A stretch of DNA of 64,000 bases from the NCBI GenBank assembly GCA_018969615.1, contig JAGWYA010000005.1:1286-65285 (forward strand), written 5' to 3'. Below the pieces are notes generated by a model that was given only the letters and a program-made list of their open reading frames with translations, was not told the DNA's origin and made no database searches. The DNA is from Patescibacteria group bacterium. Lineage in GTDB: Bacteria > Patescibacteriota > Minisyncoccia > UBA6257 > 02-FULL-45-10c. A program made the translations under genes and the position numbers. Below, in pieces: positions 13,500 through 37,842 of this stretch. Each line of letters begins with the position of its first letter. Position 1 is the first letter of the stretch.

Positions 13500-14234
13500 A
13501 TGTTGTCGTCCGAGCAGATCACCGGAAAAGCGCGCGAGATCGCATACGCATTGGTGCGCGTTTCTTTTTATATCAAACGGAGCGATCTGCAGATCCGCAT
13601 CGAGCGCAGTGCGTTCGAGCTCCTGGAACAGGCGGCGCGCGTGAGCGTTGACTCGTCGGCGAAGACGGTGATGGCGGCATTGTCATCGATCGCGGTCCTG
13701 GATGCGCTGGTTCGCCTTGCGCATTCCATTTATGAGATCGAACCGGTGAACGCAACGATCCTGGTTCGCGAGCTTGATGCGTTGCATACGGCAATTCGGC
13801 AAACAGCGAACCTTGATGAGCGATTGCCGAATCTGGAAACATTTTTTTCGCAGGACAATGCATTGCCGAATGGATCGGAAGAAAAGAATGACGAGAGCGC
13901 AAGCGATGCGAATATGACAAAGACATACGGTGCCCAGGGCGATCAGAAAGAAGGGCATCAGGCAATTGCCGAAAAGTCAGAAGCAACCAGGCCGTCGGAA
14001 AAGAACCAGGCGCTCAATATCGCACTTCGCCAGTCATCTATTATAGAGACGATCCGCTCGGGTGCGGACTCGAGCCGCCGGTTAAAGGATATCCTGTCTG
14101 AGTTCAATGATGTCAGCGAGCGAACGATCCGCTATGACCTCCAAAAATTATGCGAACGGGGGGTGATTGAGCGGGTGGGGAACGGAGGCCCGGCGACCTA
14201 CTATCGGATCCCCGTGGAGGTATCGGTCCAATAG
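13500..14234 (+). CDS. two-domain regulator: an N-terminal four-helix-bundle domain (23S-rRNA-intervening-sequence-protein-like) fused to a C-terminal winged-helix HTH (DeoR/ArsR-like)
   Basis: N-terminal pattern ...AREIAYALVRVSFYIKRSDLQIRIERSAFELLEQAARVSV...LDALVRLAHSIYEIE. C-terminal ERTIRYDLQKLCERGVIERVGNGGPATYY. A low-complexity acidic linker lies between them. Confidence 0.65.
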   Translation: MLSSEQITGKAREIAYALVRVSFYIKRSDLQIRIERSAFELLEQAARVSVDSSAKTVMAALSSIAVLDALVRLAHSIYEIEPVNATILVRELDALHTAIRQTANLDERLPNLETFFSQDNALPNGSEEKNDESASDANMTKTYGAQGDQKEGHQAIAEKSEATRPSEKNQALNIALRQSSIIETIRSGADSSRRLKDILSEFNDVSERTIRYDLQKLCERGVIERVGNGGPATYYRIPVEVSVQ

Positions 14235-14264
14235 GAAGACGTGATAGGTCTCAGGGGAAAAATC

Positions 14265-14293
14265 TTGCATTTTTCCCGCGTCTGTGCTAATAT
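14265..14293 (+). promoter_or_regulatory. sigma-70 promoter (TTGCAT-17-TAATAT) at the start of a ~280-nt unit with no convincing ORF
   Basis: -35 at 14265-14270 and -10 at 14288-14293. A terminator lies downstream at 14543-14575. Confidence 0.55.
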
Positions 14294-14294
14294 A

Positions 14295-14575
14295 GGGAGG
14301 CACTGTTTACGGGGAAATGCGGCGCCTCAAAAACGCTTCGTAACACCGTAAAGAGATACTCGTTATAATAAGGGTACTGTGAGTGTGGTTATTCACAGCG
14401 CAATGGTTTCTGGAAGATCGCAGCTTAATATATACTAAAGATATAGAGGATTCAGTGTGAGGCTGGATCTAATATACGTATAAGTTGCTGGAAATGAGCA
14501 CCGTTCGACCGGTATTCATTTCCAGCCGCTTGTTCATTTATTAGAGACTCGCTTCACGGCGAGTCTTTATCTTTC
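14295..14575 (+). ncRNA. candidate small non-coding RNA or long 5' leader, bounded by the promoter at 14265 and the terminator at 14543-14575. Contains a strong internal hairpin (14487-14526).
   Basis: Only ORFs of 16 codons or fewer. Hairpin GCTGGAAATGA...TCATTTCCAGC. Terminator agagactcgc-ttcacg-gcgagtcttt plus a T-run. Identity unknown: not RNase P, tmRNA or an obvious SRP RNA. Confidence 0.35.
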
Positions 14576-14745
14576 TCTCAACGATACTTGGAAAAATTAT
14601 TCGGTTTACTAAGGTCGGCCTCGCAAAGCGGGGATGGTAAACGAGGATAATTTTATGAAACGGTTTCCTTATAAAAACGTATTAAAATTTATTAGATTCA
14701 AAAATTCTTCATAGGGTAACGGGTCGAAACGGTACTTTATGGGGA

Positions 14746-17700
14746 ATGGTCAAAAACAAAAGAATTATGAACAAACAATTAATCAGTAAAGTTTCGGTAG
14801 CGTTCGTCTCAGCGGCGACCGTTATCACGATGTCTGGTTTCGGTACGTTGGTGCCGGTTGTGGCACACGGCGTAACGATCGCAGATCTGCAGGCGCAGAT
14901 CGCGGCGTTAACAGCGCAGCTGGCGGCTTTACAGGGTTCGGCTACCACACCGGCGGCGGCAACGTCTTCGGCGGTTCCGGCTGACCTCCTTTCTTCTGGG
15001 GACCTCACCCTCGGCAGCACGGGAGCGGCAGTTATGGATCTGCAGAAGTTCTTGAACGCGAACGGTGCACAGGTTGCGGCGACTGGCGTCGGTTCTTCCG
15101 GCAATGAAACGACTTACTTCGGTTCATTGACCCAGAAGGCTCTCGCAAAGTGGCAGGCAGCTAACGGTATCGCCCCTGCATCCGGATACTTTGGTCCGAT
15201 CACTCGTTCCAAGTTATCTTCGTTGTCTGCGGCAGCTCCGGCTCCGACGACTACGACCACGACGACCACGACTACGACTACGACGACTCCGGCGGCAGCA
15301 GGTACCGGTTTGACCGTGACCTTGGCTCCGTCCCAGCCGGCGGCAAGTTTGGCTCCGAACGGAGCAACCCGCATCCCGCTCACGAAGGTGCAGTTGACTG
15401 CATCGGCTGACGGCGATGTGACGGTCAATGGTTTGACCGTGGAGCGCCAGGGTCTCGCGCAGGATGCTGCACTCAGTGCGGTTATGCTGCTCGATTCGAA
15501 CGGCGTTCAGATGGGTCTGAAGAAGACCTTGAATTCCAACCATCAGGCGGTTGTCGGTGACACCTTTACGGTGAAAGCCGGTACGACCATGACGGTGACG
15601 CTCGCGGCAAACCGCGGGACGACTTCGTCCTATGCAGGTCAGACCTTTGACTTGGCGCTTGTTGGCGTGAACACGACCGCAACGGTCAACGGCGCTCTGC
15701 CGTTGGTCGGTACGACCGATACGATCAACGAATCGTTGACGATCGGTACGGTTACGATGGCAAAGGGTCCGTTGGATCCGGGTGCGAGCCAGACCGAGAA
15801 TATCGGTACGACCGGCTACACCTTCTCCTCAGTGAAAGTCACTGCAGGTTCATCTGAAAAGGTTGACCTTCAGTCCGTCCGCTGGAACCAGACCGGTTCC
15901 GCAGGTTCGGGTGACTTGTCGAACGTAGTGACAGTTGTCGATGGTACTTCGTACCCGACAGTGGTCAGCGCCGATGGCAAGTATTACACGACGACCTTCC
16001 CGGGCACTGGTCTTTCGATCGATAAGGGTTCTTCAAGAGAGGTCTCTATTCGTGGCGATATCTCCGGCGGTTCATCCCGCACGGTTGAGTTCGACCTTGC
16101 GAAATTGACCGACCTTGGCCTTATGGGTGAGACCTTTGGCTACGGCATCACTCCTCCGCAGACCGGTTCCTCGGTTGCGGCGTATGGTGCGGACGCTTTC
16201 AGCTCGTCTGAAGATCCGTGGTTCGCTGGCGCCAAGGTGACGGTTTCTTCCGGTACTATGTCGGTCAGCACCTGGACAGGCGTGCAGGCTCAGAACGTGG
16301 CGATCAACTTGGCTAACCAGCCTTTGGGCGGATGGTCGGTTGACACTAAGGGTGAGCCGATCTCGGTTGGCAGCATGAAGTTCGTACTTCAGGTTAACCA
16401 GACGGGCGCGAACAAGGGCGGCTTGGCTGACTTGACCAACTTGCAGTTGGTTGACCAGACGGGTGCGGTCCTCGCAGGCCCGATCGATGCTACTGGCTCT
16501 GCAAACAATGGTACGATCACCTTCACGGATTCCGTGACGTTCCCGGTTGGTATCACGAACCTTACCCTTGAAGGTAAGCTCGGATCCAACTTCGTGAGCA
16601 ACGATACCGTGAGCGCATCGACGTCTCCGGCTACCGGATGGACTTCCGTCACTGGTCAGACGACCGGTAACGTGATCACTCCGACTGGATCGTCCTTGCA
16701 GTCGCAGAACATGACGGTGAAAGCCGCAGCAGTTTCTTTGAGCGTCTCCTCGGTGCCAATCGCACAGACGGTGATCGCCGGCTCCAACCAGTTCTTGTTC
16801 GCGAACTACCTCATGGACACGACCAGCTCTGGCGAAGATATGCGCTTGACCTCGCTTCCGCTTTACCTCACGGTAGGCGCTGGCGCGGCAACGGATCTCA
16901 CGAACTGCAAGCTGTACAACGGCTCGACGGTTCTGAACTCTGAGCATGTCCTCAATCCGACTGCGGCAGGTGCGAACATCGTTACCTTCGACTCCTCGTT
17001 GACCCTTCCGAAAGGAACGTCCACGACGCTGTCCTTGAAGTGTGACGTGTTGGCGTCCGCGACCGGTAACTACAACTGGGGCTTCCACTCCACGACCGCT
17101 TCCGCGACCGGCTTAACTTCCGGCCAGAGCGTGACGTTGGCAGATGCGAACAACCTCGGTCAGGTGATGACCTCGGCAACAGGCGGTGCGCTTACGGTGG
17201 CATTGGATTCGTCCTCTCCGTCGTATGCGATCGCTTCGCCTGGTCAGACGGTTGAATTGGCTCGTATCAAGTTCAGCGCAAGCAATGAAGATGTGAACCT
17301 TAAACAGGTTGCGCTTCAGTTGACTGGCTCTGCTTCGAACACGATCATCGACCTCGTCGGTCAGCAGGTGACCTTGAACACGGTCAGCGGTACGCAGGTT
17401 GGTACGGCGACGTTCACAAGCGGCGTTACTGCCACTTCGAGCGCCCTTTCCGGCTTCGTCGTTCCGAAGGATGGTTCCGCGGTGTTGGTCGTGAAGGGTA
17501 CGATCGCAGGTATCTCTGCGTCCGGTCCTTTGACCAAGTCCGGCGATCTCCTCAAGATTGACTATGACGGCAACAACACTGGCTTGACTGGTAACTATGG
17601 TACGGGCGTTTCGTCTGGTACTACGGTGACCCCGTCCGGCTCTGATACGGCGTCGAACGGCGTCCGCATCATGAAGTCGTATCCGACGCTTGCGCAGGTT

Positions 17701-18375
17701 GCGCTCACCAGCGGTGAGACGACCCTCGTCAGCGGCGATGCGAAGACCTTGTACAAGTTCCAGGTGACCGCGAATAACGGTGACGTGGCGCTCTACAAGA
17801 TGACCTTCAGCGTTTCGTCCTCGACTGCATCCGGCAGCGACGCTACGACGACCAAATTCGGTCTCTATGCGTTCACTGATTCCGGCTTCAGCACCCCGGA
17901 TGCGAACTTCTCCGGTACGAATAACCCGGGTGGTTTGGTCAACGCAGGCTTCTGCTACAGCGGCCTTGGCTCGAACAGCCATGTCGCTCCGGCAAGCTCC
18001 GCGTTGGGCGCAGGCTCTGCTCTCGTCTCGGTCTATCCGGACCAGACTGGTTGCAACCAGGGTACGACCACGTTGATCGTTCCGGCTGGTCAGTCTCGCT
18101 GGTTCAAGTTGGTAGGCTCCGTCGGTACGCTCGCTCCGTCTGGCACATCTGAAAACATTCAGGTGCAGCTCCAGGGTGATGCGGCGTTCCCGGTGAATGC
18201 TTCCACCTTGATGCAGAAGGCATCCGGCGTGAACGGCGACACCAACAACAACCTCATCTGGTCTCCGATCTCCACAACGACTTCGAACCTCTCGTCTGAT
18301 CTCGATTGGACGAACGGCTTCGGCGTAGTAGGTCTCCCGAGCACCAACATGACGGCTGTCACGTTGAGCAAGTAG
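14746..18375 (+). CDS. very large secreted or cell-surface protein, possibly S-layer-like. It has an N-terminal signal peptide, a peptidoglycan-binding domain (PG_binding_1-like), a poly-Thr linker (T x15), and a long Ser/Thr/Gly-rich beta-rich region.
   Basis: Signal peptide MNKQLISKVSVAFVSAATVITMSG. PGBD-like repeats GSTGAAVMDLQKFL...GYFGSLTQKAL...GYFGPITRSKL. TTTTTTTTTTTTTTT at residues ~165-180. 1209 aa. The real start may be ATG 14767. Confidence 0.85.
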   Translation: MVKNKRIMNKQLISKVSVAFVSAATVITMSGFGTLVPVVAHGVTIADLQAQIAALTAQLAALQGSATTPAAATSSAVPADLLSSGDLTLGSTGAAVMDLQKFLNANGAQVAATGVGSSGNETTYFGSLTQKALAKWQAANGIAPASGYFGPITRSKLSSLSAAAPAPTTTTTTTTTTTTTTPAAAGTGLTVTLAPSQPAASLAPNGATRIPLTKVQLTASADGDVTVNGLTVERQGLAQDAALSAVMLLDSNGVQMGLKKTLNSNHQAVVGDTFTVKAGTTMTVTLAANRGTTSSYAGQTFDLALVGVNTTATVNGALPLVGTTDTINESLTIGTVTMAKGPLDPGASQTENIGTTGYTFSSVKVTAGSSEKVDLQSVRWNQTGSAGSGDLSNVVTVVDGTSYPTVVSADGKYYTTTFPGTGLSIDKGSSREVSIRGDISGGSSRTVEFDLAKLTDLGLMGETFGYGITPPQTGSSVAAYGADAFSSSEDPWFAGAKVTVSSGTMSVSTWTGVQAQNVAINLANQPLGGWSVDTKGEPISVGSMKFVLQVNQTGANKGGLADLTNLQLVDQTGAVLAGPIDATGSANNGTITFTDSVTFPVGITNLTLEGKLGSNFVSNDTVSASTSPATGWTSVTGQTTGNVITPTGSSLQSQNMTVKAAAVSLSVSSVPIAQTVIAGSNQFLFANYLMDTTSSGEDMRLTSLPLYLTVGAGAATDLTNCKLYNGSTVLNSEHVLNPTAAGANIVTFDSSLTLPKGTSTTLSLKCDVLASATGNYNWGFHSTTASATGLTSGQSVTLADANNLGQVMTSATGGALTVALDSSSPSYAIASPGQTVELARIKFSASNEDVNLKQVALQLTGSASNTIIDLVGQQVTLNTVSGTQVGTATFTSGVTATSSALSGFVVPKDGSAVLVVKGTIAGISASGPLTKSGDLLKIDYDGNNTGLTGNYGTGVSSGTTVTPSGSDTASNGVRIMKSYPTLAQVALTSGETTLVSGDAKTLYKFQVTANNGDVALYKMTFSVSSSTASGSDATTTKFGLYAFTDSGFSTPDANFSGTNNPGGLVNAGFCYSGLGSNSHVAPASSALGAGSALVSVYPDQTGCNQGTTTLIVPAGQSRWFKLVGSVGTLAPSGTSENIQVQLQGDAAFPVNASTLMQKASGVNGDTNNNLIWSPISTTTSNLSSDLDWTNGFGVVGLPSTNMTAVTLSK

Positions 18376-18404
18376 TTTTCAGAGCTTGAGACTCTGAAAG
18401 CTTA

Positions 18405-18446
18405 ACCAAAACCCCTCCCTTGTGGAGGGGTTTTTGGTTTCCTTAT
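18405..18446 (+). terminator. rho-independent terminator after the surface-protein gene
   Basis: Stem aaccaaaacccctccc/gggaggggtttttggtt with loop ttgt, followed by a T-run. Confidence 0.8.
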
Positions 18447-18492
18447 TTTTTTTTACTTCTATGGAGGGCGGCCAGAAATAACTATTGCTTTT

Positions 18493-18551
18493 GATCCTGA
18501 TCCTCTCGCGGCAGCACTGGGGTCTTACGCTGCCTTAAGAGGATCAGGATC
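18493..18551. repeat. hairpin family 2 member (d): outer stem GATCCTGATCCTCT/AGAGGATCAGGATC, inner stem GGCAGC/GCTGCC. Loop ACTGGGGTCTTAC, reverse complement GTAAGACCCCAGT.
   Basis: Inverted repeats with a small internal bulge. 13-nt conserved loop in minus orientation. Confidence 0.65.
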
Positions 18552-18578
18552 CTTGCCCGGAGAACTCGTAGAGGGAGA

Positions 18579-18631
18579 AGCAGATCATTTTTTATAACGT
18601 AAGAACCCGGTGTTATAAAAAATGATCTGCT
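18579..18631. repeat. hairpin family 2 member (c): perfect 20-bp stem AGCAGATCATTTTTTATAAC/GTTATAAAAAATGATCTGCT. Loop GTAAGAACCCGGT.
   Basis: Perfect inverted repeat. 13-nt conserved loop. It is oriented opposite to member (d), which lies 28 nt upstream. The (a)/(b) pair at 2923-3052 has the same arrangement. Confidence 0.75.
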
Positions 18632-18687
18632 GCTCACCTGAGCGCTTTGTGGAATTTAAGTACCACTTTTGGTACTATGTTTTAGTT

Positions 18688-20394
18688 ATGCTGGAACGCC
18701 TCAAAACTTATCTGACTGCCCGGAACCTTTTGATCGCCGTATTGGTGTTCGGTTCGCTGATCCGATTCTGGGGCGTGGGAACCGCGGAGATCTTCAATGA
18801 CGAAGGGTTCTACGCGTTCCGTTCGATCGGCTATCTGGATTACATCCAGAACGTCAGCCAGACGACCCCGATCCAGTGGTTTCAGAATACGGTAATGCCG
18901 TGGTGGACGCATTTGTCGTTCCATGACGTCCCGCCGCTGTTCTTCATGGTGCAGCATTATTTCTTTATGCTGTTCGGCGATTCGCTGTTGGTCGCGCGGC
19001 TCCCGTCGCTTCTCGCCGGGATCGGGACGCTGCTGCTGATGTATTATATCGGGAAACGATTGTTCCAAAATGAATACGCCGGCGTGCTCGCCGCGGCGCT
19101 TCTGGCGGTGAGCAATATGCATATCTGGATCTCGCGTTCGTCGCTGATCGAAGGATTGGAGGTGTTCATCATCGCGGGTGCGATCCTGATCTTTTTGCAT
19201 TTTTTGGAGGACCGGAAAAAATGGTGGCCGTGGCTGGGAGTTGCGTTGGGCGCCGCCGCGCTGACCAAATACACCGCCGTGTTCATCGTGCCGGTGTTTT
19301 TGATCGTTCTGCTGATGCGCGACCGGAAGCTGCTTCTGGCGGGCGAGTTCTGGTATGCAGTGGTGCTTGCGGCGATCCTGTTCTCGCCGGTGATCGTCTA
19401 TAACATTGAGATGTATCATGCGGTCGGTCATTTTGATCTTCAGTTCGCGTATCTGTTTCATCAGGCGACCCCGGAGTGGCAGGCGTCGCTCGGAAAGGTC
19501 CAGGACCCGTTCGGGAATATCGGGAGCAATCTTTTGGCGATGTATTCGATCCCGTTCCTGGTGCTGGCGTTCGGCGGATTCGTACTCGGCCTCGTGGAAT
19601 GGTTTAAAAAGAAAAGCGGCGTTGCGCAGATGCTTCAGGCGGCCGAGTCGTATCTGGGCATTGGTGATCACGGAAATGAATGGGCTCCGCTTGCGGTCAG
19701 CGCGGTGATCCTGATCACGCTCATGCTGGTGGCGGTGGGGTCGGCCTACCGGTTCCTGGCGCTCTACAGCATCTTTTTTGTGATCCTGGCGGTCGCAGCG
19801 CTCTGGGAACTTCGGAAGATCGATGATATCCGGGGATGGTTCGTACTGATCGTGATCGCGCTTTTGGCATACCAATTATATTTTGCGATCGACGGCATTT
19901 TCATGACTTTCCCGGATTTCGGTATCGTGAAGCTCGATGCGTATTTTTCTCAGGGGTTTAACGGGATGCGCTCGGCCGATCCGCCGCAGTCGTCGAATCC
20001 TCATTTGGAACAGGTGATCAAGGATAATCTTTCGTTGGTACCGGCAAGTTCGACGCCGTTCATGATCGTCTATGATGAGAACGTCGCCTTGTCCGCGCGG
20101 CTGTGGCTGTTCACGCGGCGGATCTATTACCACGGCATTTCGGCGGTGACGACGGGGCAGTTCAAGTCATTGCTTCAGTCGAACCAGGCGGCGCTCAAGG
20201 GGATCACGGTCTATTTCGTGAAAGCGAGCCAATACACCTCGCTCAATCCGTATTTAAGCGTTCCCGATGCCTCTGATCTTACAGCATTCCTGACCGCTCC
20301 TTCGGCGAACGGGGGGTTGGGTCTTACGCCGGCGGCAACGATCACCGGATATGACGGATTGCCGATGTTCACGGTCTATAAGTTCACGATGTAA
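18688..20394 (+). CDS. GT-C membrane glycosyltransferase. ArnT/PMT-like, family GT39/GT83: a dolichyl/undecaprenyl-phosphate-sugar-dependent transferase.
   Basis: About 11 TM helices. Conserved first-loop acidic motif (IFNDEGFYAFRS). Large C-terminal periplasmic domain. Start trimmed to MLERLKTYL (18688), because the track ORF start overlaps hairpin (c). Confidence 0.82.
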   Translation: MLERLKTYLTARNLLIAVLVFGSLIRFWGVGTAEIFNDEGFYAFRSIGYLDYIQNVSQTTPIQWFQNTVMPWWTHLSFHDVPPLFFMVQHYFFMLFGDSLLVARLPSLLAGIGTLLLMYYIGKRLFQNEYAGVLAAALLAVSNMHIWISRSSLIEGLEVFIIAGAILIFLHFLEDRKKWWPWLGVALGAAALTKYTAVFIVPVFLIVLLMRDRKLLLAGEFWYAVVLAAILFSPVIVYNIEMYHAVGHFDLQFAYLFHQATPEWQASLGKVQDPFGNIGSNLLAMYSIPFLVLAFGGFVLGLVEWFKKKSGVAQMLQAAESYLGIGDHGNEWAPLAVSAVILITLMLVAVGSAYRFLALYSIFFVILAVAALWELRKIDDIRGWFVLIVIALLAYQLYFAIDGIFMTFPDFGIVKLDAYFSQGFNGMRSADPPQSSNPHLEQVIKDNLSLVPASSTPFMIVYDENVALSARLWLFTRRIYYHGISAVTTGQFKSLLQSNQAALKGITVYFVKASQYTSLNPYLSVPDASDLTAFLTAPSANGGLGLTPAATITGYDGLPMFTVYKFTM

Positions 20395-20400
20395 GGATTC

Positions 20401-20489: not shown

Positions 20490-21515
20490 ATGAAAAAAGC
20501 ACTTTTGTTCGCGGGAAGTCTGGGGTTGGTTTTTACGCTGGTCGGCATTGCATCGGCGGCATCGTTCGGGCGAGATCTGACGATCGGTTCGCAGGGAACT
20601 GATGTAACAGACCTTCAGAACTTTTTGACGCAGCAAGGCGTATATACAGGTCCGGTAACCGGGTATTTCGGCCCACTGACTCAGGAAGGCGTGAAGAAGT
20701 TCCAGGAAGCGCATCAGATCACACCGGTCGCCGGCTACTTCGGACCGCTGACGCGCTCGGCGGCGAATGGATTGCTCGGCGTTTCGCAGGCCGCTTCTGT
20801 TGTTTCCGCGGCTCCGGCTGCCTCGGCTGCTTCTTCGCAACTTGATACGGTTGCGGCTCTTTTAAAGCAGCTGCAGGCACTGAAGGATGAGCTTGCGGGA
20901 TTGACCGCTGCGGCTCCGGCGCCCGCTGCAACAACGACCCCCGCGGTTCCCGCGGTAACGCCGGCGACTACGACTCCTGTGACTGCGGTAGCGACCGCAA
21001 CACCGGCGGTTACGGCCTCATCTCTTCCGAATCCGTTTACGAGCCCGATGACGATCGTTTCCGATTATCCGTCCCGGACGCTCAGCTCTTATACCTCCGC
21101 CATTCTCAATGAATATGTTTTGAGCGGGGCACCCGAGAAAGTGGCGATCACAAAATTGCGCGTGACGAATGTCGGAACGTTCAGCGATATCTATATTAAC
21201 GAGTTGGCGTTGTCCAACAGTTTGACCGGGCAGGTGCTGGCGACGACCGGCGCGCCGGTGGACGGCGTAGCGGAGTTCGTGATGACGCCGGATGCGAGCA
21301 AGCCGGATAAGGGCGTGATGGTCTCGGGTGGGATCTATACGATCACGGGTGCGCTGCGGACGCCAAATATCGGGGGAACGAAGCCGTATCTCGAATTGGA
21401 TGTCGCATCATCCACTGACGTCACTGCGGTTGATTACGCGACGCTGTCGCGCACAGCCGACCTGGGGGGATCGAATGCGTTCCCGATCATCGGTCCGCGG
21501 ATCTCGGCTTTTTAG
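20490..21515 (+). CDS. secreted protein with an N-terminal signal peptide, a peptidoglycan-binding domain, an Ala/Pro/Thr-rich linker and a C-terminal domain
   Basis: MKKALLFAGSLGLVFTLVGIASA. PGBD repeats (GTDVTDLQNFL...GYFGPLTQEGVKKFQ...GYFGPLTRSAANGLL). A and PAT-rich linker. The start is trimmed to ATG 20490, since the track start translates the heptamer repeats. Confidence 0.8.
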   Translation: MKKALLFAGSLGLVFTLVGIASAASFGRDLTIGSQGTDVTDLQNFLTQQGVYTGPVTGYFGPLTQEGVKKFQEAHQITPVAGYFGPLTRSAANGLLGVSQAASVVSAAPAASAASSQLDTVAALLKQLQALKDELAGLTAAAPAPAATTTPAVPAVTPATTTPVTAVATATPAVTASSLPNPFTSPMTIVSDYPSRTLSSYTSAILNEYVLSGAPEKVAITKLRVTNVGTFSDIYINELALSNSLTGQVLATTGAPVDGVAEFVMTPDASKPDKGVMVSGGIYTITGALRTPNIGGTKPYLELDVASSTDVTAVDYATLSRTADLGGSNAFPIIGPRISAF

Positions 21516-21572: not shown

Positions 21573-22346
21573 ATGAAAAAAGTCATCGGATTAGTGGTGG
21601 GTGTCGCAGTGCTTGCGTTGGTTATTGTGGGGGTGAGGTATGAGATGGATCGCGGAAGCCGTTGGGCGCAGCCGTCTCCGGAAGAAGCAGTGGTTGCTAC
21701 GACGACGCCGCAGACTGCGGCGACCTCAACCCCGGCAACAGGGGATGATGCCGCATTGCAGGCGGAGGCAGCCCTGCTTTTGGATCAGCCCGCGACCGTC
21801 GACCCTTCTTTAAATCTATCTGACTCGGTGCAGCAGATGGCGCTTCAGAAGATCAAGGATTCGACCGATATGCTCCGCGCGAACTATAACTATGCGAATC
21901 CGTGGTATGACCTGAGCGCGTATCGCCGGATGATCGGAGATTACAACGGCGCGATCGATGACCTCTTGTTCGTGACGAAGATCCGTCCGGATGACTTCGT
22001 TTCGCTTCATGACTTGGGTGATATCTATGCATTCCTGAAGGATTATCCGAAGGCGGAATCGTATTACCTTGCCTCGATCAGTAAGAATCCTCAGAACAGT
22101 GATGCGTATGTGGCGCTTGCGGCGATCTATCAGTACAATGACACGGCGAACGCTTCGCAGATCGTTCCGCTGCTCCAAAAAGGGATCGCGGCGGATCCGA
22201 AAGACGCACGATTACTGATCACGCTGGGAGAATATGAAAAGAGTATTGGCAACACCGCCGAGGCAAAGACTTATTTGAACAAAGCATTGGCGCTGGATCC
22301 GTCCAATACATCTCTCCAGCAGGAGGTCGCCGCGCTTGGCCAATAG
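21573..22346 (+). CDS. membrane-anchored TPR-repeat protein
   Basis: N-terminal TM (VIGLVVGVAVLALVIVGV), followed by several TPR-like repeats (…AYVALAAIYQYNDTANA…AEAKTYLNKALALDP). Confidence 0.78.
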   Translation: MKKVIGLVVGVAVLALVIVGVRYEMDRGSRWAQPSPEEAVVATTTPQTAATSTPATGDDAALQAEAALLLDQPATVDPSLNLSDSVQQMALQKIKDSTDMLRANYNYANPWYDLSAYRRMIGDYNGAIDDLLFVTKIRPDDFVSLHDLGDIYAFLKDYPKAESYYLASISKNPQNSDAYVALAAIYQYNDTANASQIVPLLQKGIAADPKDARLLITLGEYEKSIGNTAEAKTYLNKALALDPSNTSLQQEVAALGQ

Positions 22347-24036
22347 GCGACCGGCTATGCGTACGTGGTTCAGGCCGAAATATGTGCTGATCGCGATCCT
22401 CGCGGTTGCCTTTGCGTTGCGGTTATGGGGGATCGGGAATACGGATATGCTCGGCGATGAAGCGGCTGATGCGTTCCGATCCGTCGGGTATATCGATTAT
22501 CTTGGAACGAGCGCCCAAACGCAGCCGATCGATTGGTTTAAGGATTCTCCGACGCTTCCCGCCTGGACCTCGCTGTCGTTCCATGATGATCCGCCGCTGG
22601 GATTCATGGTCCAGCATTCATTCTTTGCGTTCTTCGGCGATTCATCGACAACCGCGCGTCTCCCGGCGGTTCTTTTTGGTACGCTGGCGGTTTGGCTGCT
22701 CTATGAGATCGCTAAAAAATTGCTCGTGCGCGACCATCGCGGAAGAGATGATCTGTTGTCCGGCAATGCCGTCGAAGGCATCGCGCTTCTCGCGGCGGGA
22801 CTGTATGCGATCGAACCGGCGACAGTGGGTATTTTCCGGACTGCGCTTTTGGAGCCGATCCTCATTTTTTTCGTACTACTGAACCTTTGGTGTTTTCTGA
22901 AGTTCGTTGAGGACCGCCGCTGGTGGTGGCCGTTCGGATTGACCCTGGGAGCGGTTGCGCTGACCAAATATACGGGCGTATTCCTGGTGCCGCTGTATGC
23001 GCTGTACCTTTTTCTGTATGATCGGAAGTTGTTCCGGAGCTGGCGTTTGTATGCGGCGCTTTTGCTGACGGTCATTCTGTTCTCGCCGGTGATCATCTAT
23101 AACGCCCAGCTGTTTCAGGCGCGCGGCCATTTCGATCTGCAGTTCGCCTATCTGCTGCATCAGGCAACGCCCGAATGGACCGGTCTCATCGGGAAAACAC
23201 AGGCGCCGTTCTCGGCGATCATTCCGAATCTGATCACATCCTACGGGATCCCGTTCCTTGCAATGGCGCTTGCCGGTCTTGTCATCGCAGGGATCTGGTA
23301 TCGGAAATATCGCAGACAGGGGATGCTCTTTGTGCTTGCCTATGTTTTATTCTTGGGGCTGCTGTTGGTAAAGATCGGTTCGGCATCCCGTTTTCTGGCG
23401 ATGCTGGGACCTGCGTTTGTGATCCTTGCGGCCATCGCGTTATGGTCTCTGGCCGTGTTTCCGCGCGTTTCGCGTACCGGCCGGTACGCGCTGGTGCTTG
23501 CGGCGGCGCTCTTTATGGCTTATGAGGCGGGCGTTGCGATCGACCGGAATATCGTTTCCTATCCATCGTATGGCGTTGCGGGATTGGACAACTATTTCTC
23601 GCAGCAATTCAGCGGTATTGAGTCTGCGGTCATTCCGGAGGCCGATAATGTGCATCTGACGGCGATCACTAAGGAGTTCGCGGCAAAGAAATCAGCGATC
23701 GCGCCGCGGAAATTGGTGATGATCGTGTATAACGACCAGATAGCCCTTCCGACATTGGAATGGGTGTTCTATCGCCGTTTCTTCTATCATTCGATCCCGA
23801 CGATGTATGTGCAGAACTTTGAAAGCGCTTTGAAAGCGAATCCGACGCAGTTCAATGGTTTTACCGTTTATTTCGTGCAAACGACGCCGCATACCCTTTT
23901 GGACCCGTTCCGGGCGAACGATACGGCCGGCGATGCGTTTGAGCAGCAGGTCATCGCCAACGGCGTGCAGCCGGACGCGGTCATTTACGGCACCGGCCAT
24001 CAGGAAATGTTCCGCGTATACAAGTTTACACTGTAG
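22336..24036 (+). CDS. GT-C membrane glycosyltransferase. ArnT/PMT-like GT39/GT83, a paralogue of the gene at 18688..20394.
   Basis: Same architecture and first-loop motif (MLGDEAADAFRS). Shares many conserved blocks with the 18688 protein (e.g. HFDLQFAYL.HQATPEW, VYKFT). The start may be the Met at 22357. Confidence 0.82.
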   Translation: MANRRPAMRTWFRPKYVLIAILAVAFALRLWGIGNTDMLGDEAADAFRSVGYIDYLGTSAQTQPIDWFKDSPTLPAWTSLSFHDDPPLGFMVQHSFFAFFGDSSTTARLPAVLFGTLAVWLLYEIAKKLLVRDHRGRDDLLSGNAVEGIALLAAGLYAIEPATVGIFRTALLEPILIFFVLLNLWCFLKFVEDRRWWWPFGLTLGAVALTKYTGVFLVPLYALYLFLYDRKLFRSWRLYAALLLTVILFSPVIIYNAQLFQARGHFDLQFAYLLHQATPEWTGLIGKTQAPFSAIIPNLITSYGIPFLAMALAGLVIAGIWYRKYRRQGMLFVLAYVLFLGLLLVKIGSASRFLAMLGPAFVILAAIALWSLAVFPRVSRTGRYALVLAAALFMAYEAGVAIDRNIVSYPSYGVAGLDNYFSQQFSGIESAVIPEADNVHLTAITKEFAAKKSAIAPRKLVMIVYNDQIALPTLEWVFYRRFFYHSIPTMYVQNFESALKANPTQFNGFTVYFVQTTPHTLLDPFRANDTAGDAFEQQVIANGVQPDAVIYGTGHQEMFRVYKFTL

Positions 24037-24139: not shown

Positions 24140-25330
24140 CTACTTGCTACGTACTATTTTCTCGTACACTTCCTCCGTCTTTTTCACCATCGTGGTGAGA
24201 TTGAATGATTTGCGGACAGCGGCGTGCGCTGTTTTTTCGATCTCGCGGGCGATCGACGGATTAGCGAGGAGTCCGGTGATCGCATGAGCAAGTTGTGCCG
24301 GGTCGCGCTGAGTGATCATGATGCCGTTCTCATGGCTTTTGATGATCTCTGGGATGCCCCCGGCCTCGGTGACGATGATCGGCAGCTCGGCCGCCATGGC
24401 TTCCAGGAGAATATACGGAAGACCTTCTTTGATGGAGGACATGACGAACATATCAAAGGCCTTCAGATACCGCGCATCATCTCCGGACGGCGGAATAAAA
24501 AAGAATCTATCGCTGACGTTCGACTTTTGACTTTCGACTTTTAGTTTCGGTAATTCCGGTCCATCGCCGATGATGAAGAAAACGCCGCGGGGGACCAAAG
24601 CGGCCGCGCGGATGAGCGTTTCATAGTTCTTTTCCTTGACGATACGTCCGATCGAACCGATCCAAACCTCTCCGACATTTGACATTTGACGTTCGCCGCC
24701 TTCAGCGAGCCTCGCCCCTGGCGGGACTTTTGACTTGCTTAAAATTTCTTCCCGGGCCTTTTCTTTGCTCAGAAATTTTAAGCTTGGATCGATGCCGTTA
24801 TGGATCATGGTGATCTTGTGATCGGGTGTGATGTGAAGTTGGCGGGCAAGCGCGGCATCGTATTCAGAAACGCAGATGATCGCATCCTGGAATTTCGCTG
24901 TGAGCATATGGAGGGCGATATAGAACCAGCGGATCGGTCCTGCGATCGCATTCGTCGGATTGAAGACCCAGCCATGCGCCGTGAAGACGACTTTGATTGG
25001 ATGACTTTCGACTTTAGACTTTCGACTTTTGACTTTATATATTCTGGCCGCGATCGCGCCTAATACCCCGGCTTTTGAACTATTGAGATGAAGAACGTCC
25101 GGCTGTTCGCGTTTGAGAAGGCGGACGATCTCCGCGACCGCGAGCCAGTCATTCGCGAACAGAAACCACGGACGCGTGGCGTTGGAAAGCCAGCGAAGGT
25201 CCTTTCCGCCATAGACGATCTTTGCTTCAAAGCGGTCCCGGGGGAGGCTTTGAGCAAGATCGGTGACGTATTTTTGCGCCCCGCCGACATCGGCTTTCGT
25301 GATTAGATAGAGGACTTTTATCTTTTTCAT
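24140..25330 (-). CDS. GT4-family glycosyltransferase (group-1 glycosyltransferase). Carries three internal heptamer-repeat tracts (24513-24548, 24672-24736, 24988-25045).
   Basis: C-terminal GT4 motif EGLPYILLEAMAAELPIIVTEAGG. N-terminal GT4 domain. The repeat tracts translate as SAKVESQKSNVSD, MSNVGE and KVKSRKSKVESHP. Confidence 0.88.
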   Translation of the reverse strand: MKKIKVLYLITKADVGGAQKYVTDLAQSLPRDRFEAKIVYGGKDLRWLSNATRPWFLFANDWLAVAEIVRLLKREQPDVLHLNSSKAGVLGAIAARIYKVKSRKSKVESHPIKVVFTAHGWVFNPTNAIAGPIRWFYIALHMLTAKFQDAIICVSEYDAALARQLHITPDHKITMIHNGIDPSLKFLSKEKAREEILSKSKVPPGARLAEGGERQMSNVGEVWIGSIGRIVKEKNYETLIRAAALVPRGVFFIIGDGPELPKLKVESQKSNVSDRFFFIPPSGDDARYLKAFDMFVMSSIKEGLPYILLEAMAAELPIIVTEAGGIPEIIKSHENGIMITQRDPAQLAHAITGLLANPSIAREIEKTAHAAVRKSFNLTTMVKKTEEVYEKIVRSK

Positions 25331-25533
25331 ACACTTTTCTTTTGGGAATTAGAAATTGGTTATTAGAAATTTAATCCTACTGCCCACTGCCTACGCACTA
25401 CTTACTTTTTAGCCCCGTATCCTTATTAGCCTTTCCGGTGTTATATACGGTAAAATTACACTATATCACGCTTTTGGCTTTAGGTTATTTACTGCCCACT
25501 TCCTACTGCCTACGTGCTATTTCTATAACACGC

Positions 25534-26712
25534 ATGAAGAATGAAAAGTCTAACATAGCCGTCTTTTCCTTCGCCTACGCCCCTTTTGAAGGAGGCGCTG
25601 AAGTGGCGCTTAGGGAGATCATGCGCCGGCTCCCGGCGTTCTCCTTTACCGTGTTCACGGCTCATTTTGACGAACGAAGCTCGATCCACGAGGTTCAGGA
25701 CCATGTGGAGATCATCCGTCTCGGAAAGCCGACTCGTCGCCGGTATGGCCTGTTGGTGAAAAAGGTCCGTTATATTTTTCAGGCATGGCAGGCGGCGGAA
25801 GAGCGGCACCGCCGCGCGCGGTTCGATGCGATCTGGGTGGTGATGGCATCCTATGGCGGCATCGCCGCGTTGTTGTTCAAGATGAAGCACCCCTCGATCC
25901 CGATGCTTTTGACCGTTCAGGAAGGGGATTCGGAACGGCATTTGAAATACGGCAAATTCGGCCTGGTCGGATTCTTTGGAAAGGTTTTATTGCATTCCGC
26001 CGATGCGATCCAGGTGATCAGCGGATATTTGCGCGATTTTGCGCTCAGGAAGGGCGCGTCGGAACCGATCACGGTCGTGCCGAACGGCGTTGATGAAAAA
26101 TTGTTCGCGACTGCATACGGTCCTGATCAGCTTCGGACCTTGCGGAACTATCTTGAGATCGGCGACGACTATGTGATCGTGACGACCTCGCGGCTCGTTC
26201 CGAAGAACGGCGTTGATATTCTGATCAAGGCGGTCGCCCGGTTCAGGGAGCGCCGCCCGAACGTGAAGTGTCTGATCATCGGCGGCGGACCGGAGCGGCA
26301 ACGCCTCGAAAGGCTTTCCCGCCGTCTGGGCGTCGAGCGGAACATCGTATTTCTCGGACAAATGGCGCAGAATGATCTCCCGCTGTATTTCGCGATCGCG
26401 GACATGTTCGCCCGGCCGTCCCGTTCGGAAGGATTGGGAAATTCGTTCCTTGAGGCAATGGCGGCGGGCATCCCGGTGATCGGAACGCCGGTAGGCGGGA
26501 TCGTGGATTTTTTGAAGGACGGTGAAACGGGATTTCTTGCGCAGCCGGAGGACCCGGAAAGCGTTGCAGCGAAAATGCATGAGATACTGGATAATGAAGC
26601 GCGGACGCAGGCGATCGTTGCGCGGGCGCGCGAACTGGTGGAGCGGTCCTATACCTGGGATGTTGTGGCGCGCATGATGCGGACGATCTTCGATCAATTG
26701 ATCAATCTATGA
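25534..26712 (+). CDS. GT4-family glycosyltransferase
   Basis: EGLGNSFLEAMAAGIPVIGTPVGG motif. Start trimmed to MKNEKSNIAVF (25534). Confidence 0.88.
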   Translation: MKNEKSNIAVFSFAYAPFEGGAEVALREIMRRLPAFSFTVFTAHFDERSSIHEVQDHVEIIRLGKPTRRRYGLLVKKVRYIFQAWQAAEERHRRARFDAIWVVMASYGGIAALLFKMKHPSIPMLLTVQEGDSERHLKYGKFGLVGFFGKVLLHSADAIQVISGYLRDFALRKGASEPITVVPNGVDEKLFATAYGPDQLRTLRNYLEIGDDYVIVTTSRLVPKNGVDILIKAVARFRERRPNVKCLIIGGGPERQRLERLSRRLGVERNIVFLGQMAQNDLPLYFAIADMFARPSRSEGLGNSFLEAMAAGIPVIGTPVGGIVDFLKDGETGFLAQPEDPESVAAKMHEILDNEARTQAIVARARELVERSYTWDVVARMMRTIFDQLINL

Positions 26713-29005: not shown

Positions 29006-29007
29006 TC

Positions 29008-29766: not shown

Positions 29767-29773
29767 GAATCGT

Positions 29774-37131: not shown

Positions 37132-37842
37132 TTAAAGGATATTCATTCTGAATTTTATCATGTCAACGAACGTATCGACAATGACGTTCCATTTCGATCC
37201 GCTGGCGACGCCGCTGGACCGGTGAAAATGCGTAACCGGAAATTGCGCGATCGAAAACCCGGCTCGGGATGCGCGGATCAGCATTTCGGCATCAATGAAT
37301 GCGCTGGCGCTCTTGATCTGCATCGGATCAATAACCTTCCGCTTGTAGATCTTCATGGAGCAGTTGACGTCCCGAAGGCGAAGGCCGAACAGTGCGCGTA
37401 TGAAAAAATTATAGATGGCCGATTGGACTTTCCGCCCGTTGGTGACCGCCTTCTCGGTCACATATCCGCTCAAGATATCGTGATCGTTGAGGAGCGGGAG
37501 AGCCGGTTTGAACTCGCGGATATCATACTGATTATCGCCGTCGGTATACATGACGTAGTCATACCGGGCCGCTTTGAATCCGTCATGGAGCGTTGCGCCG
37601 TAGCCGAGGTTCTTCGGATGATGGATCACGCGGACATGCGGGACCGTTTTTGCTAGTTCATCGGCGACCGTTCCGGTCCGGTCGGGGCTGCCGTCCTCAA
37701 CGATGATGATCTCAAAAGTATCCGTGATCTCTTTGAGGAATTCCGCGACGCGGGGAATGAGCGTAGGAAGGTTTTGCTCGTCGTGATAGGCGGGACAGAA
37801 GAATGAGACGCTTTTTAATTTTCCCGCTGTGTGAGAAGGCAT
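37132..37842 (-). CDS. GT2-family polyprenyl-phosphate sugar synthase (DPM1-like)
   Basis: SFFCPAYHDE...VEDGSPDRT...TDGDNQYD motifs. Confidence 0.82.
   Translation of the reverse strand: MPSHTAGKLKSVSFFCPAYHDEQNLPTLIPRVAEFLKEITDTFEIIIVEDGSPDRTGTVADELAKTVPHVRVIHHPKNLGYGATLHDGFKAARYDYVMYTDGDNQYDIREFKPALPLLNDHDILSGYVTEKAVTNGRKVQSAIYNFFIRALFGLRLRDVNCSMKIYKRKVIDPMQIKSASAFIDAEMLIRASRAGFSIAQFPVTHFHRSSGVASGSKWNVIVDTFVDMIKFRMNIL

What the first reader, a model, noticed from the sequence alone, without database searches (positions are those of the whole stretch)
14746..20394. Ser/Thr-rich giant surface protein with a poly-Thr linker placed directly upstream of a PMT/ArnT-like GT-C transferase: candidate protein O-glycosylation pair
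The 1209-aa protein has a signal peptide, a peptidoglycan-binding domain, a run of 15 Thr and more than 1000 residues rich in S/T/G. It is followed, after two hairpins, by a GT39/GT83-like membrane transferase with the catalytic DE loop motif. A second secreted PGBD protein with a PAT-rich linker (20490) and a second GT39-like paralogue (22336) follow. GT-C enzymes of this type use polyprenyl-P-sugars, and four candidate polyprenyl-P-sugar synthases are encoded downstream. Together this looks like a dedicated surface-protein O-glycosylation system.
Basis: inference. Interest (0 to 1): 0.55.

Follow-up and report, generated by a model that had tools for sequence, protein, structure and literature searches.

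The report
Parcubacterial surface protein with linked GT-C glycosyltransferases
A large, unusually conserved cell-wall-anchored surface protein of an uncultured Parcubacteria (CPR) bacterium lies next to two membrane glycosyltransferases that, in related genomes, are almost never found away from it, which makes this a plausible but unproven first protein-glycosylation system for this group of bacteria.

Summary
The window comes from a Patescibacteria/Parcubacteria MAG.

- **Surface protein ("BigST").** The 1209-aa protein has a signal peptide, a coiled coil, a PG_binding_1 domain, a disordered T14 linker and about 1000 residues of folded tandem beta-sandwich domains. It has at least 1181 homologues, the best 120 about 1200 aa long and at least 49% identical.
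- **Universal neighbours.** These are an HTH protein upstream and a membrane-anchored TPR protein downstream (50 of 51 loci). GT-C genes accompany it in only 12 of 51 loci.
- **Reverse linkage.** The two GT-C clades found here almost never occur elsewhere: 17 of 18 clade-A genes lie directly after BigST, and every clade-B gene lies beside the TPR gene or in the cassette.
- **The enzymes.** They model confidently as GT-C. They keep an invariant DE motif and the ScPmt1 R138 equivalent. By profile they score PMT above ArnT, and by fold they are equidistant from ArnT, OST and PMT.
- **Donors.** Candidate polyprenyl-P-sugar synthases are present.
- **Acceptor.** It is unproven. S/T content does not covary with GT-C presence, so a glycan acceptor remains a serious rival.

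Verdict: partly supported, and a new variant of a known kind.

The parts
13500..14234 (+). HTH-type cytoplasmic protein (244 aa); conserved upstream neighbour of the surface-protein gene
   Evidence: Weak HTH_DeoR/HTH_12 hits at its C-terminus. A homologue lies one or two genes upstream of BigST in most related loci.
14235..14745 (+). 511-nt upstream region of the surface-protein gene, with a promoter-like site (14340-14369) and a hairpin (14542-14569)
   Evidence: Consensus scan and sequence. Function was not tested.
14746..18375 (+). BigST, a 1209-aa secreted, peptidoglycan-anchored surface protein. Parts: signal peptide (aa 1-41), coiled coil, PG_binding_1 (aa 92-157, nt 15019-15216), disordered T14 linker (nt 15247-15288), then tandem beta-sandwich domains (aa 185-1209)
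   Evidence: At least 1181 homologues, the best 120 about 1200 aa long and at least 49% identical. pI 4.7. Codon usage differs from neighbouring genes.
18408..18434 (+). Terminator-like hairpin (11-bp stem followed by a T-run) directly after the BigST stop codon
18493..18635 (+). Two long hairpins (23- and 24-nt arms, with loops complementary to each other) in the leader of GT-C#1. The sequence from 18575 to the start codon is nearly identical in the closest relative
   Evidence: z -9.3; L161 alignment.
18688..20394 (+). GT-C#1 (clade A), a 568-aa PMT_2/PMT-type polytopic glycosyltransferase with a C-terminal alpha/beta domain. DE motif at 18799-18804. The ORF is open from 18622
20490..21515 (+). 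Small secreted PGBD protein (341 aa): PG_binding_1, coiled coil, PAT-rich linker, and one beta-sandwich domain homologous to the BigST repeats
   Evidence: It co-occurs with clade-A GT-C.
21573..22346 (+). Membrane-anchored TPR protein (257 aa; N-terminal TM helix, T-rich linker, TPR domain). It is the near-universal downstream partner of BigST
   Evidence: Present within 7 genes of BigST in 50 of 51 loci.
22336..24036 (+). GT-C#2 (clade B), a PMT_2/PMT-type enzyme that overlaps or abuts the TPR gene. DE motif at 22456-22461
24140..25330 (-). GT4 glycosyltransferase on the opposite strand; a conserved last member of the cassette
   Evidence: An orthologue follows clade-B GT-C in most cassette loci.
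25438..30808 (+). Three GT4 genes, a 265-aa GT2 (28969-29766, candidate polyprenyl-P-sugar synthase) and one more GT4
   Evidence: The 28969 orthologues score 314-370 bits in cassette loci L003, L026, L033 and L057.
30812..32251 (+). GT-C#3 (479 aa, PMT_2) with a DE motif, followed by a 246-aa GT2 (32248-32988)
34889..36208 (-). 439-aa, 8-TM membrane protein that aligns with the PMT_2 core; a probable fourth GT-C-like enzyme
   Evidence: No Pfam hit. hhalign to A1 gives probability 77%, E 2e-5.
37132..37842 (-). 236-aa GT2; candidate polyprenyl-P-hexose synthase
   Evidence: ArnC model 70 bits and Dol-P-hexose transferase model 61 bits, both far below their cut-offs.
43583..44530 (+). 315-aa GtrB/ArnC/PgfS-type GT2 with two C-terminal TM helices; the strongest candidate for the lipid-P-sugar donor synthase
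   Evidence: (ArnC model 200 bits and PgfS model 165 bits, both full length but below equivalog cut-offs).
55136..58756 (.). Wzx-type flippase (55136-56401, minus strand) and Wzy_C-TPR protein (56288-58756, plus strand); end of the glycan island and a rival candidate O-oligosaccharyltransferase
   Evidence: An orthologue lies 6 kb from BigST in L080. It is near BigST in only 5 of 83 loci.

Best explanation
**What it is.** BigST is the conserved major surface protein of Parcubacteria. It is anchored to peptidoglycan by its N-terminal PGBD and projects, or tiles, an array of beta-sandwich domains, so it is possibly the S-layer protein. It works with a universally linked membrane-anchored TPR protein and an HTH regulator.

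**What was added in this lineage.** The locus has acquired two paralogous PMT/ArnT-type GT-C glycosyltransferases, a small PGBD paralogue, and a large glycan-biosynthesis island.

**Proposed mechanism.**
1. GT2 enzymes (43583 above all) load single sugars onto polyprenyl phosphate at the cytoplasmic face.
2. After flipping, GT-C#1 and GT-C#2 transfer the sugar on the outer face of the membrane, using the DE loop as catalytic base.
3. The acceptors are hydroxyl groups of exported proteins, most probably Ser/Thr in the T/S/P/A-rich linkers of BigST and the small PGBD protein as they leave the Sec channel.

**Shown:** gene content, GT-C fold, conserved catalytic-type residues, and the linkage pattern.

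**Inferred:** donor identity, the protein acceptor, the O-linkage, and the S-layer role.
For: - **Linkage.** In 77 GT-C-anchored loci from GTDB species genomes, 17 of 18 clade-A genes lie directly downstream of BigST. All clade-B genes lie beside the TPR gene or in the cassette. Gene order varies (B-G-s-t-G, B-G-s-G-t, B-t-G, B-G-t-G), so the linkage survives rearrangement.
- **Asymmetry.** BigST often lacks adjacent GT-Cs (39 of 51 loci), whereas these GT-C clades are almost never without BigST. That pattern fits an accessory modifier and its target.
- **The enzyme.** The GT-C#1 model has pLDDT 91.9 and pTM 0.91 and adopts a GT-C fold. The family profile hits Pmt1 (3.7e-8), Pmt4 (6e-8 and 4e-7) and Pmt2 (1.7e-4) ahead of ArnT (2.4e-4). 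Invariant R104 aligns with ScPmt1 R138, and D38-E39 are invariant in loop 1.
- **Donor synthases.** Present in the window. Distant family members pair with a 233-aa GT2 and a DUF2079 protein.
- **Potential acceptors.** All three exported proteins of the cassette carry T/S/P/A-rich linkers. The BigST linker is predicted disordered.
- **Precedents.** C. bescii GT39 Cbes_1864 lies near its substrate gene celA, whose protein has Thr/Pro linkers (PMC6151902). GtrB+PgtC2 and the Pgf system glycosylate S/T-rich disordered regions in streptococci (10.1101/2024.05.05.592596).
- **ArnT role unlikely.** No lipid A or LPS pathway in Parcubacteria (PMC5220378).
Against: - There is no direct evidence for any acceptor.
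- Linker S/T fraction, body S/T content and TPR-linker S/T content do not differ between loci with and without adjacent GT-Cs (p 0.33-0.7). Only long S/T runs are commoner with GT-Cs (8/34 vs 1/36, p 0.03, not corrected for phylogeny).
- Some BigST homologues with an adjacent GT-C have almost no S/T in the linker, e.g. L086 with 2 of 24 residues.
- The fold search does not separate PMT from ArnT, OST or ALG enzymes (TM 0.45-0.55 for all).
- No MIR or PMT_4TMC domains were found.
- BigST has its own terminator and is not co-transcribed with the GT-Cs.
- The island holds many cytoplasmic GTs, Wzx and Wzy_C, which suits a polysaccharide product.
- No GtrA-type flippase was identified in the window.
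Confidence: 0.45

Rival explanations
1. The GT-Cs act on a glycan rather than a protein. They would elongate or decorate, outside the membrane, a cell-wall polysaccharide or lipid-linked glycan made by the GT4/GT2/Wzx/Wzy_C island. Their linkage to BigST would then reflect a combined 'surface protein plus its wall polymer' locus, as with S-layer genes placed next to secondary-cell-wall-polymer genes in Firmicutes.
For: - The window holds at least 9 GT4-type enzymes, 4 GT2, at least 4 GT-C-like proteins, Wzx, Wzy_C-TPR, RmlD, 2 AsnB-type amidotransferases and 7 methyltransferases.
- Clade-B GT-C is always followed by GT4 genes.
- Structural neighbours include AftA/AftD/EmbB/PimE/ALG enzymes, which act on glycans.
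- S/T content does not covary with GT-C presence.
Against: - BigST with its PGBD exists in most lineages without these GT-Cs, so they are not needed for anchoring.
- Profile similarity is highest to protein O-mannosyltransferases.
- Clade A is linked more tightly to BigST and the small PGBD protein than to any GT4 gene.
Confidence: 0.3
2. The GT-Cs are general protein O-glycosyltransferases for many secreted or membrane proteins with S/T-rich linkers, like actinobacterial Pmt or streptococcal PgtC2. They would not be a system dedicated to BigST.
For: - Known bacterial GT-C protein glycosyltransferases have broad substrate ranges.
- Sister clade C and other family members sit in unrelated contexts such as RecO, MsrA/B and a DUF11 protein.
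- The TPR protein also has a T-rich linker.
Against: General enzymes would not need to stay next to one substrate gene through repeated rearrangements, yet 17 of 18 clade-A genes and all clade-B genes do.
Confidence: 0.12
3. Protein glycosylation happens en bloc through the Wzy_C-TPR protein (56288-58756), acting as a PglL/WsaB-type O-oligosaccharyltransferase on a Wzx-flipped oligosaccharide. The GT-Cs would only add side-branch sugars afterwards.
For: - Wzy_C domain (E 2.9e-19) fused to TPRs, with a Wzx gene next to it.
- An orthologue (35% identity over 744 aa) lies 6 kb downstream of BigST in L080, which has no GT-C.
Against: - Wzy_C-TPR is near BigST in only 5 of 83 anchored loci.
- No initiating phosphoglycosyltransferase was seen in the window.
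- Wzy_C domains are equally typical of polymerases and ligases.
Confidence: 0.08
4. The adjacency is inherited gene order with no functional meaning.
For: The related loci are all Parcubacteria. The counts are not corrected for phylogeny.
Against: The linkage persists across GT-C identities as low as 30-45%, across several gene orders, and in Buchananbacteria-type loci where BigST has no detected PGBD.
Confidence: 0.05

Closest known systems
Bacterial GT39 protein O-glycosyltransferases (actinobacterial Pmt with Ppm1; Caldicellulosiruptor bescii Cbes_1864)
   Same: - Polytopic GT-C enzyme of about 550 aa in a monoderm bacterium, with a DE motif in loop 1.
- A lipid-P-sugar donor made by a GT2.
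- Acceptors are Thr/Pro-rich linkers of secreted proteins.
- Cbes_1864 lies close to its substrate gene celA (PMC6151902).
- The Pfam PMT model is matched above threshold, and the best PDB profile hits are Pmt1 and Pmt4.
   Different: - Only distant similarity (profile E about 1e-8, covering one TM3-TM6 segment).
- A distinct, highly conserved C-terminal alpha/beta domain.
- Two paralogues, each with its own fixed position beside a PGBD protein or a TPR protein.
- No experimental evidence here.
Streptococcal GtrB+PgtC2 and Pgf (PgfS/PgfM1/PgfE/PgfM2) systems
   Same: A GtrB-type GT2 with two C-terminal TM helices plus GT-C enzyme(s) that modify extracytoplasmic Ser/Thr-rich disordered regions, including those of surface adhesins. 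The window's GT2 at 43583 matches the PgfS model over its full length (165 bits).
   Different: - The score is far below the PgfS equivalog cut-off (500).
- No epimerase was found next to the GT-Cs.
- The GT-Cs here are linked to one surface-protein gene, not arranged in an operon with the GT2.
ArnT (GT83)
   Same: Best Foldseek hit (5f15, E 1.7e-8, TMq 0.51). Same overall architecture: many TM helices followed by a C-terminal extracytoplasmic domain.
   Different: - ArnT's acceptor is lipid A, which Parcubacteria are reported to lack.
- No arnA/B/D genes in the window.
- Sequence-profile similarity is lower than to PMTs.
Eukaryotic TMTC1-4 (GT-C/PMT clan fused to lumenal TPRs; O-mannosylation of cadherin beta-sandwich domains)
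   Same: A GT-C of the PMT clan working beside an extracytoplasmic TPR module and a protein made of tandem Ig-like beta-sandwich domains (PMC7801869 and PMC7001481).
   Different: - The TPR module here is a separate protein.
- It accompanies BigST even where no GT-C is present, so its primary role is probably tied to BigST itself.
- This is an analogy only.
S-layer glycosylation (slg) clusters of Firmicutes, and Ig-array S-layers such as Deinococcus HPI
   Same: - An acidic, Cys-poor, abundant-looking surface protein made of Ig-like arrays, with its own promoter and terminator.
- A large glycan locus with an rml gene, Wzx and a Wzy_C protein nearby (PMC10120038 listed).
   Different: - No SLH domain; anchoring is through PG_binding_1.
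- BigST is far more conserved than typical S-layer proteins.
- Lattice formation has not been shown.

Membership tests
GT39 / PMT protein O-mannosyltransferases | Match to the Pfam PMT (PF02366) model above its gathering score | tested here: met
   GT-C#1 scores 51.1 bits and GT-C#2 42.4 bits against a cut-off of 22.7. PMT_2 scores 87.1 and 70.5 bits.
GT39 / PMT protein O-mannosyltransferases | Asp-Glu motif in the first extracytoplasmic loop, and the Arg equivalent to ScPmt1 R138 | tested here: met
   D38, E39 and R104 are invariant in 37 sequences. R104 aligns with R138 of 6p25_A. The DE aligns with the Pmt DE in a sub-threshold segment.
GT39 / PMT protein O-mannosyltransferases | MIR domain in loop 5 and the C-terminal PMT_4TMC module (eukaryotic PMT architecture) | tested here: not met
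   No MIR or PMT_4TMC hit. The model instead shows a C-terminal alpha/beta domain at residues about 410-568. Bacterial Pmts also lack MIR (own knowledge).
GT39 / PMT protein O-mannosyltransferases | Transfer of mannose from polyprenyl-P-Man to protein Ser/Thr | not testable with these tools
   Requires biochemistry or glycoproteomics.
GT83 / ArnT | Lipid A acceptor and an arnABCDEF context | tested here: not met
   The window has no arnA/B/D or lpx genes. An ArnC-like GT2 reaches only 200 bits against a cut-off of 529. Parcubacteria are reported to lack lipid A/LPS genes (PMC5220378). The whole genome was not available.
GT83 / ArnT | ArnT-like fold | tested here: inconclusive
   5f15 is the top Foldseek hit, but its TMq of 0.51 is similar to AglB (0.52), ALG12 (0.55), STT3 (0.48-0.51) and CtPmt4 (0.45).
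GT66 oligosaccharyltransferases (PglB/AglB/STT3) | WWDYG-type motif, and N-sequon use | tested here: not met
   No WWD motif in either GT-C. N-X-S/T sequons in BigST number 14 against 15.3 expected.
Three-component Gtr/Pgf-type extracytoplasmic glycosylation | GtrB-type GT2 with C-terminal TM helices | tested here: met
   43583-44530: full-length alignment to the ArnC and PgfS models, with 2 TM helices at residues about 238 and 272. It lies 23 kb from the GT-Cs.
Three-component Gtr/Pgf-type extracytoplasmic glycosylation | GtrA-type small flippase | not tested
   No GtrA hit among the ORFs scanned (all at least 113 aa). Smaller ORFs were not searched systematically.
S-layer protein | Forms a paracrystalline lattice and is the most abundant envelope protein | not testable with these tools
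   Indirect evidence only: pI 4.7, 0.3% Cys, own terminator, biased codon usage, Ig-like arrays.

The most novel reading that the evidence does not exclude
The HTH-BigST-TPR module encodes the long-sought, near-universal and exceptionally conserved S-layer or cell-surface lattice protein of Parcubacteria. In a subset of lineages this protein is glycosylated by a dedicated pair of divergent GT-C enzymes that work with the TPR protein, as a split, TMTC-like machine acting on linkers or folded beta-sandwich domains. That would be the first protein-glycosylation system, and the first identified major envelope protein, of the Candidate Phyla Radiation.
Probability: 0.2. Interest if true: 0.75.

Novelty: new variant of a known kind. 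Interest (0 to 1): 0.5.

Why it matters
**Why the envelope matters.** CPR/Patescibacteria make up a large share of bacterial diversity and live attached to other cells. Their envelope is said to be unclear (PMC5220378). My searches of the paper library found no description of this protein family.

**What this analysis offers.**
- A concrete candidate for the main surface protein of Parcubacteria: about 1200 aa, PG-anchored, at least 49% identical among the 120 best homologues (named sources include six candidate phyla), and always paired with a TPR partner.
- A lineage-restricted glycosylation add-on that can be tested directly. The tests are metaproteomic searches for glycopeptides from a defined 27-residue linker, and heterologous reconstitution using four genes.

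**If confirmed.** It would extend lipid-phosphate-sugar/GT-C protein O-glycosylation to the CPR. It would also give handles, in the form of epitopes, lectins and cryo-ET fitting, for studying how these episymbionts contact their hosts.

Tried and rejected
- **PDB sequence searches.** The single GT-C#1 sequence gave no hit, and BigST gave only a chance-level hit. A profile was needed.
- **NCBIfam.** Only a sub-threshold Agl23 hit for the GT-Cs, and nothing for BigST.
- **Rfam.** Only four tRNAs in the window. No known RNA family covers either structured leader.
- **Fold search of BigST.** It returned only generic Ig-like arrays (PrgB, alpha-2-macroglobulin, integrin legs) and no specific S-layer or adhesin family.
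- **Covariation tests.** Linker or body S/T content against GT-C adjacency gave a null result, apart from a weak excess of long S/T runs.
- **Wzy_C-TPR as a regular partner of BigST.** Rejected: present in 5 of 83 loci.
- **Highly expressed PGBD proteins reported in Paceibacteria (PMC10936435).** The one whose length I could check, PMX_810_sub_00350, is 693 aa and its best UniRef hit is unrelated. It cannot be equated with BigST.
- **Neighbours of solo clade-C GT-Cs.** RecO, MsrA/B and a DUF11 protein gave no functional clue.
- **Three further polytopic proteins.** 46410 and 51315 have no detectable family. The third, 34889(-), also has no Pfam family but does align to the GT-C profile.
- **Literature.** Searches for a description of this protein family, or of CPR protein glycosylation, found none.

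Full report
**Origin and overall map.** GT-C#1 is 100% identical to an NCBI protein named 'glycosyltransferase family 39 protein [Patescibacteria group bacterium]' on a 66-kb contig. All relatives come from Parcubacteria-type MAGs, including Harrison-, Giovannoni-, Niyogi-, Buchanan- and Paceibacteria. Pfam scans of all long ORFs give this map:

| Coordinates | Content |
|---|---|
| up to ~14.2 kb | housekeeping genes |
| 13500-14234 | HTH protein |
| 14746-18375 | the 1209-aa protein ('BigST') |
| 18688-20394 | GT-C#1 |
| 20490-21515 | small PGBD protein |
| 21573-22346 | membrane-anchored TPR protein |
| 22336-24036 | GT-C#2 |
| ~24.1-58.8 kb | glycan island |
| 58863-63137 | sigma70_r4 / unknown / TrwB block |

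The glycan island holds:
- at least 9 GT4-type enzymes and four GT2;
- a third PMT_2 protein (30812) and a PMT_2-like 439-aa membrane protein (34889-36208, minus strand; hhalign probability 77%);
- RmlD, two AsnB-type amidotransferases and seven methyltransferases;
- a Wzx flippase and a Wzy_C-TPR protein.

**Check of the observation.**
- The Thr run is 14 residues (aa 168-181), written with mixed synonymous codons. The run is therefore maintained at the protein level and is not a slippage tract.
- Residues 185-1209 are 26% S+T, against 9.7% in 22 pooled neighbouring proteins.
- The BigST-GT-C intergenic region has four hairpins, not two. One is a strong terminator-like stem directly after the BigST stop codon. 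The region folds far better than shuffled sequence (z -9.3).
- GT-C#1 most likely starts at 18688.
- Both GT-Cs pass the Pfam PMT and PMT_2 thresholds and carry the DE motif.
- Of the four GT2 genes, 43583 is a convincing GtrB/ArnC/PgfS-type enzyme with two C-terminal TM helices. 28969 and 37132 are plausible. 32248 is weak.

**What BigST is.**
- *Model.* The AlphaFold model was built from a 42-sequence alignment (pLDDT 84). It shows an N-terminal helix, the PGBD, a disordered linker that coincides with the T14 run, and then a long string of well-predicted all-beta domains.
- *Fold matches.* Foldseek finds only generic Ig-like arrays.
- *Repeats.* At least six copies of the domain that forms the C-terminus of the small PGBD protein are detectable.
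- *Meaning of the composition.* The 'S/T/G-rich 1000 residues' are a folded beta-sandwich array, not a mucin-like region.
- *Conservation.* The family is unusually conserved. There are at least 1181 homologues. The best 120 are all about 1200 aa, at least 49% identical and cover at least 98% of the query (one at 88%). Those with source names come from six candidate phyla.
- *Signs of abundance.* pI 4.7, almost no Cys, its own terminator, a 511-nt upstream region and distinct codon usage (Gly GGT/GGC 93% against 52% in other genes). These fit an abundant structural surface protein, possibly the S-layer. This is inference.

**Comparative genomics, GT-C-anchored.** I used 77 loci from GTDB species genomes, my own ORF calls with HMM labelling and an NJ tree of 97 full-length GT-Cs.
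- *Clade A* (which includes GT-C#1): 17 of 18 members lie immediately downstream of BigST and are followed by the small PGBD gene.
- *Clade B* (which includes GT-C#2): all members lie beside the TPR gene, usually followed by a minus-strand GT4.
- *Sister clade C* and more distant clades sit in unrelated contexts.
- *Gene order* varies (B-G-s-t-G, B-G-s-G-t, B-t-G, and Buchananbacteria-type B-G-t-G), so the linkage has survived rearrangements.

**Comparative genomics, BigST-anchored.** I used 80 metagenome loci plus three look-ups. Among 51 loci with at least 3 kb of downstream sequence:
- the TPR gene is within seven genes in 50, and is the very next gene in 39;
- a GT-C is present in only 12.

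The universal module is therefore HTH-BigST-TPR, and the GT-Cs are lineage-restricted additions. In a Giovannonibacteria genome (L078), a block homologous to window 58863-63137 lies 5.6 kb after BigST-TPR. This suggests that the roughly 37-kb island in the window is a variable insertion.

**The enzymes.**
- *Model.* The GT-C#1 model is confident (pLDDT 91.9, pTM 0.91). It shows TM1, a long first outer loop that carries D38-E39, a multi-TM core and a C-terminal alpha/beta domain.
- *Fold ranking.* Foldseek places it in the GT-C superfamily with ArnT first. AglB, STT3, PglB, Pmt4 and ALG12 follow at similar TM-scores, so fold alone does not assign an acceptor.
- *Profile ranking.* A profile of 37 family members hits Pmt1, Pmt4 and Pmt2 ahead of ArnT. 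It aligns the invariant R104 with ScPmt1 R138.
- *Exclusions.* There is no OST motif and no sequon enrichment. An ArnT function is implausible because these bacteria are reported to lack lipid A.

**Tests that could have strengthened the protein-acceptor idea but did not.** Linker S/T fraction, body S/T content and TPR-linker S/T content are the same in loci with and without adjacent GT-Cs. Only long S/T runs are somewhat commoner when GT-Cs are adjacent (8/34 vs 1/36, p 0.03, not corrected for phylogeny). The BigST linker is always 15-45 residues of T/S/P/A/G, but its S/T count ranges from 1 to 21.

**Interpretation.** The asymmetric linkage is what an accessory modifier and its target would show: the modifier is almost never without BigST, while BigST is often without the modifier. 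Several other points fit.
- The enzymes have PMT-type catalytic residues.
- Lipid-P-sugar synthases are present.
- Three cassette proteins carry exported T/S/P/A linkers.
- There are precedents in monoderm bacteria: Cbes_1864 next to celA, GtrB+PgtC2 and Pgf acting on S/T-rich disordered regions, and actinobacterial Pmt.

I therefore favour GT-C-mediated O-glycosylation of BigST and the small PGBD protein, at a confidence of 0.45. The main rival, at 0.3, is that the GT-Cs build or decorate a wall glycan made by the same island. Lesser rivals are:
- general rather than dedicated protein glycosylation;
- en-bloc transfer by the Wzy_C-TPR protein, which is weakly linked to BigST (5 of 83 loci);
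- inherited synteny with no functional meaning.

**Novelty.** The mechanism class is known. The new elements are:
- the CPR setting;
- a divergent GT-C family with its own C-terminal domain;
- the fixed two-paralogue arrangement around PGBD and TPR proteins;
- the underlying, apparently undescribed, universal HTH-BigST-TPR module.

My literature searches found no description of any of these.

Noticed in passing
window 13500-22346; loci L078-L160: HTH protein, BigST and a membrane-anchored TPR protein form a near-universal three-gene module in Parcubacteria. The TPR gene is within 7 genes of BigST in 50 of 51 loci and is the next gene in 39. BigST keeps at least 49% identity over about 1000 aa among the 120 best homologues, whose named sources span six candidate phyla. 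That is far more conserved than typical surface or S-layer proteins.
   Followed up: partly
window 18493-18690: Two long hairpins (23-24 nt arms) whose loops are complementary to each other over 15 nt lie in the GT-C#1 leader. The stretch from 18575 to the start codon is about 97% identical to locus L161, although the GT-C proteins are only 86% identical. This may be a conserved cis-regulatory RNA or an operator. No Rfam family matches.
   Followed up: partly
window 48001-55200: A low-GC sub-island (GC 0.39-0.47 against about 0.54 elsewhere; GC3 0.36-0.55). It holds an LPG_synthase_TM protein, two GT4 genes, two methyltransferases and a 599-aa 9-TM protein of no known family. It looks like a separately acquired segment of the glycan locus.
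   Followed up: no
window 46410-48383 and 51315-53114: Two large polytopic membrane proteins (657 aa with about 15 TM; 599 aa with about 9 TM). Neither has a Pfam match even at E up to 1, and neither is similar to the GT-C profile. No homologues were found in the 77 GT-C-anchored loci L001-L077.
   Followed up: partly
window 34889-36208 (-) and 30812-32251 (+): Two further PMT_2-like GT-C candidates inside the island. The first has no Pfam hit and was found only by profile alignment. The window therefore encodes at least four GT-C-type enzymes.
   Followed up: partly
window 58863-63137 vs L078 18282-21663: The block sigma70_r4/HARE-HTH protein, unknown protein (DUF8128 in L078) and TrwB/VirD4-like coupling ATPase is conserved (33-64% identity). 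In a Giovannonibacteria genome it lies 5.6 kb after BigST-TPR. The roughly 37-kb glycan island in the window therefore looks like a variable insertion between conserved flanks.
   Followed up: partly
L068 7819-11700 and similar loci (L054, L059, L063, L069, L075): A more distant clade of the same GT-C family is regularly clustered with a GT2 of about 235 aa and a DUF2079 membrane protein. This may be a separate extracytoplasmic glycosylation module in Parcubacteria.
   Followed up: no
window 4601-5530 (-) and 5449-5522 (+): tRNA-Pro (CGG) lies inside the 5' end of the mechanically called CDP-alcohol phosphatidyltransferase ORF on the opposite strand. The real start of that gene is probably further downstream.
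   Followed up: no
window 14746-18375: BigST codon usage differs sharply from neighbouring genes: Gly GGT+GGC 93% against 52%, Leu CTG 8% against 27%, and Ala GCA+GCT 52% against 25%. This is consistent with translational selection in a highly expressed gene.
   Followed up: partly
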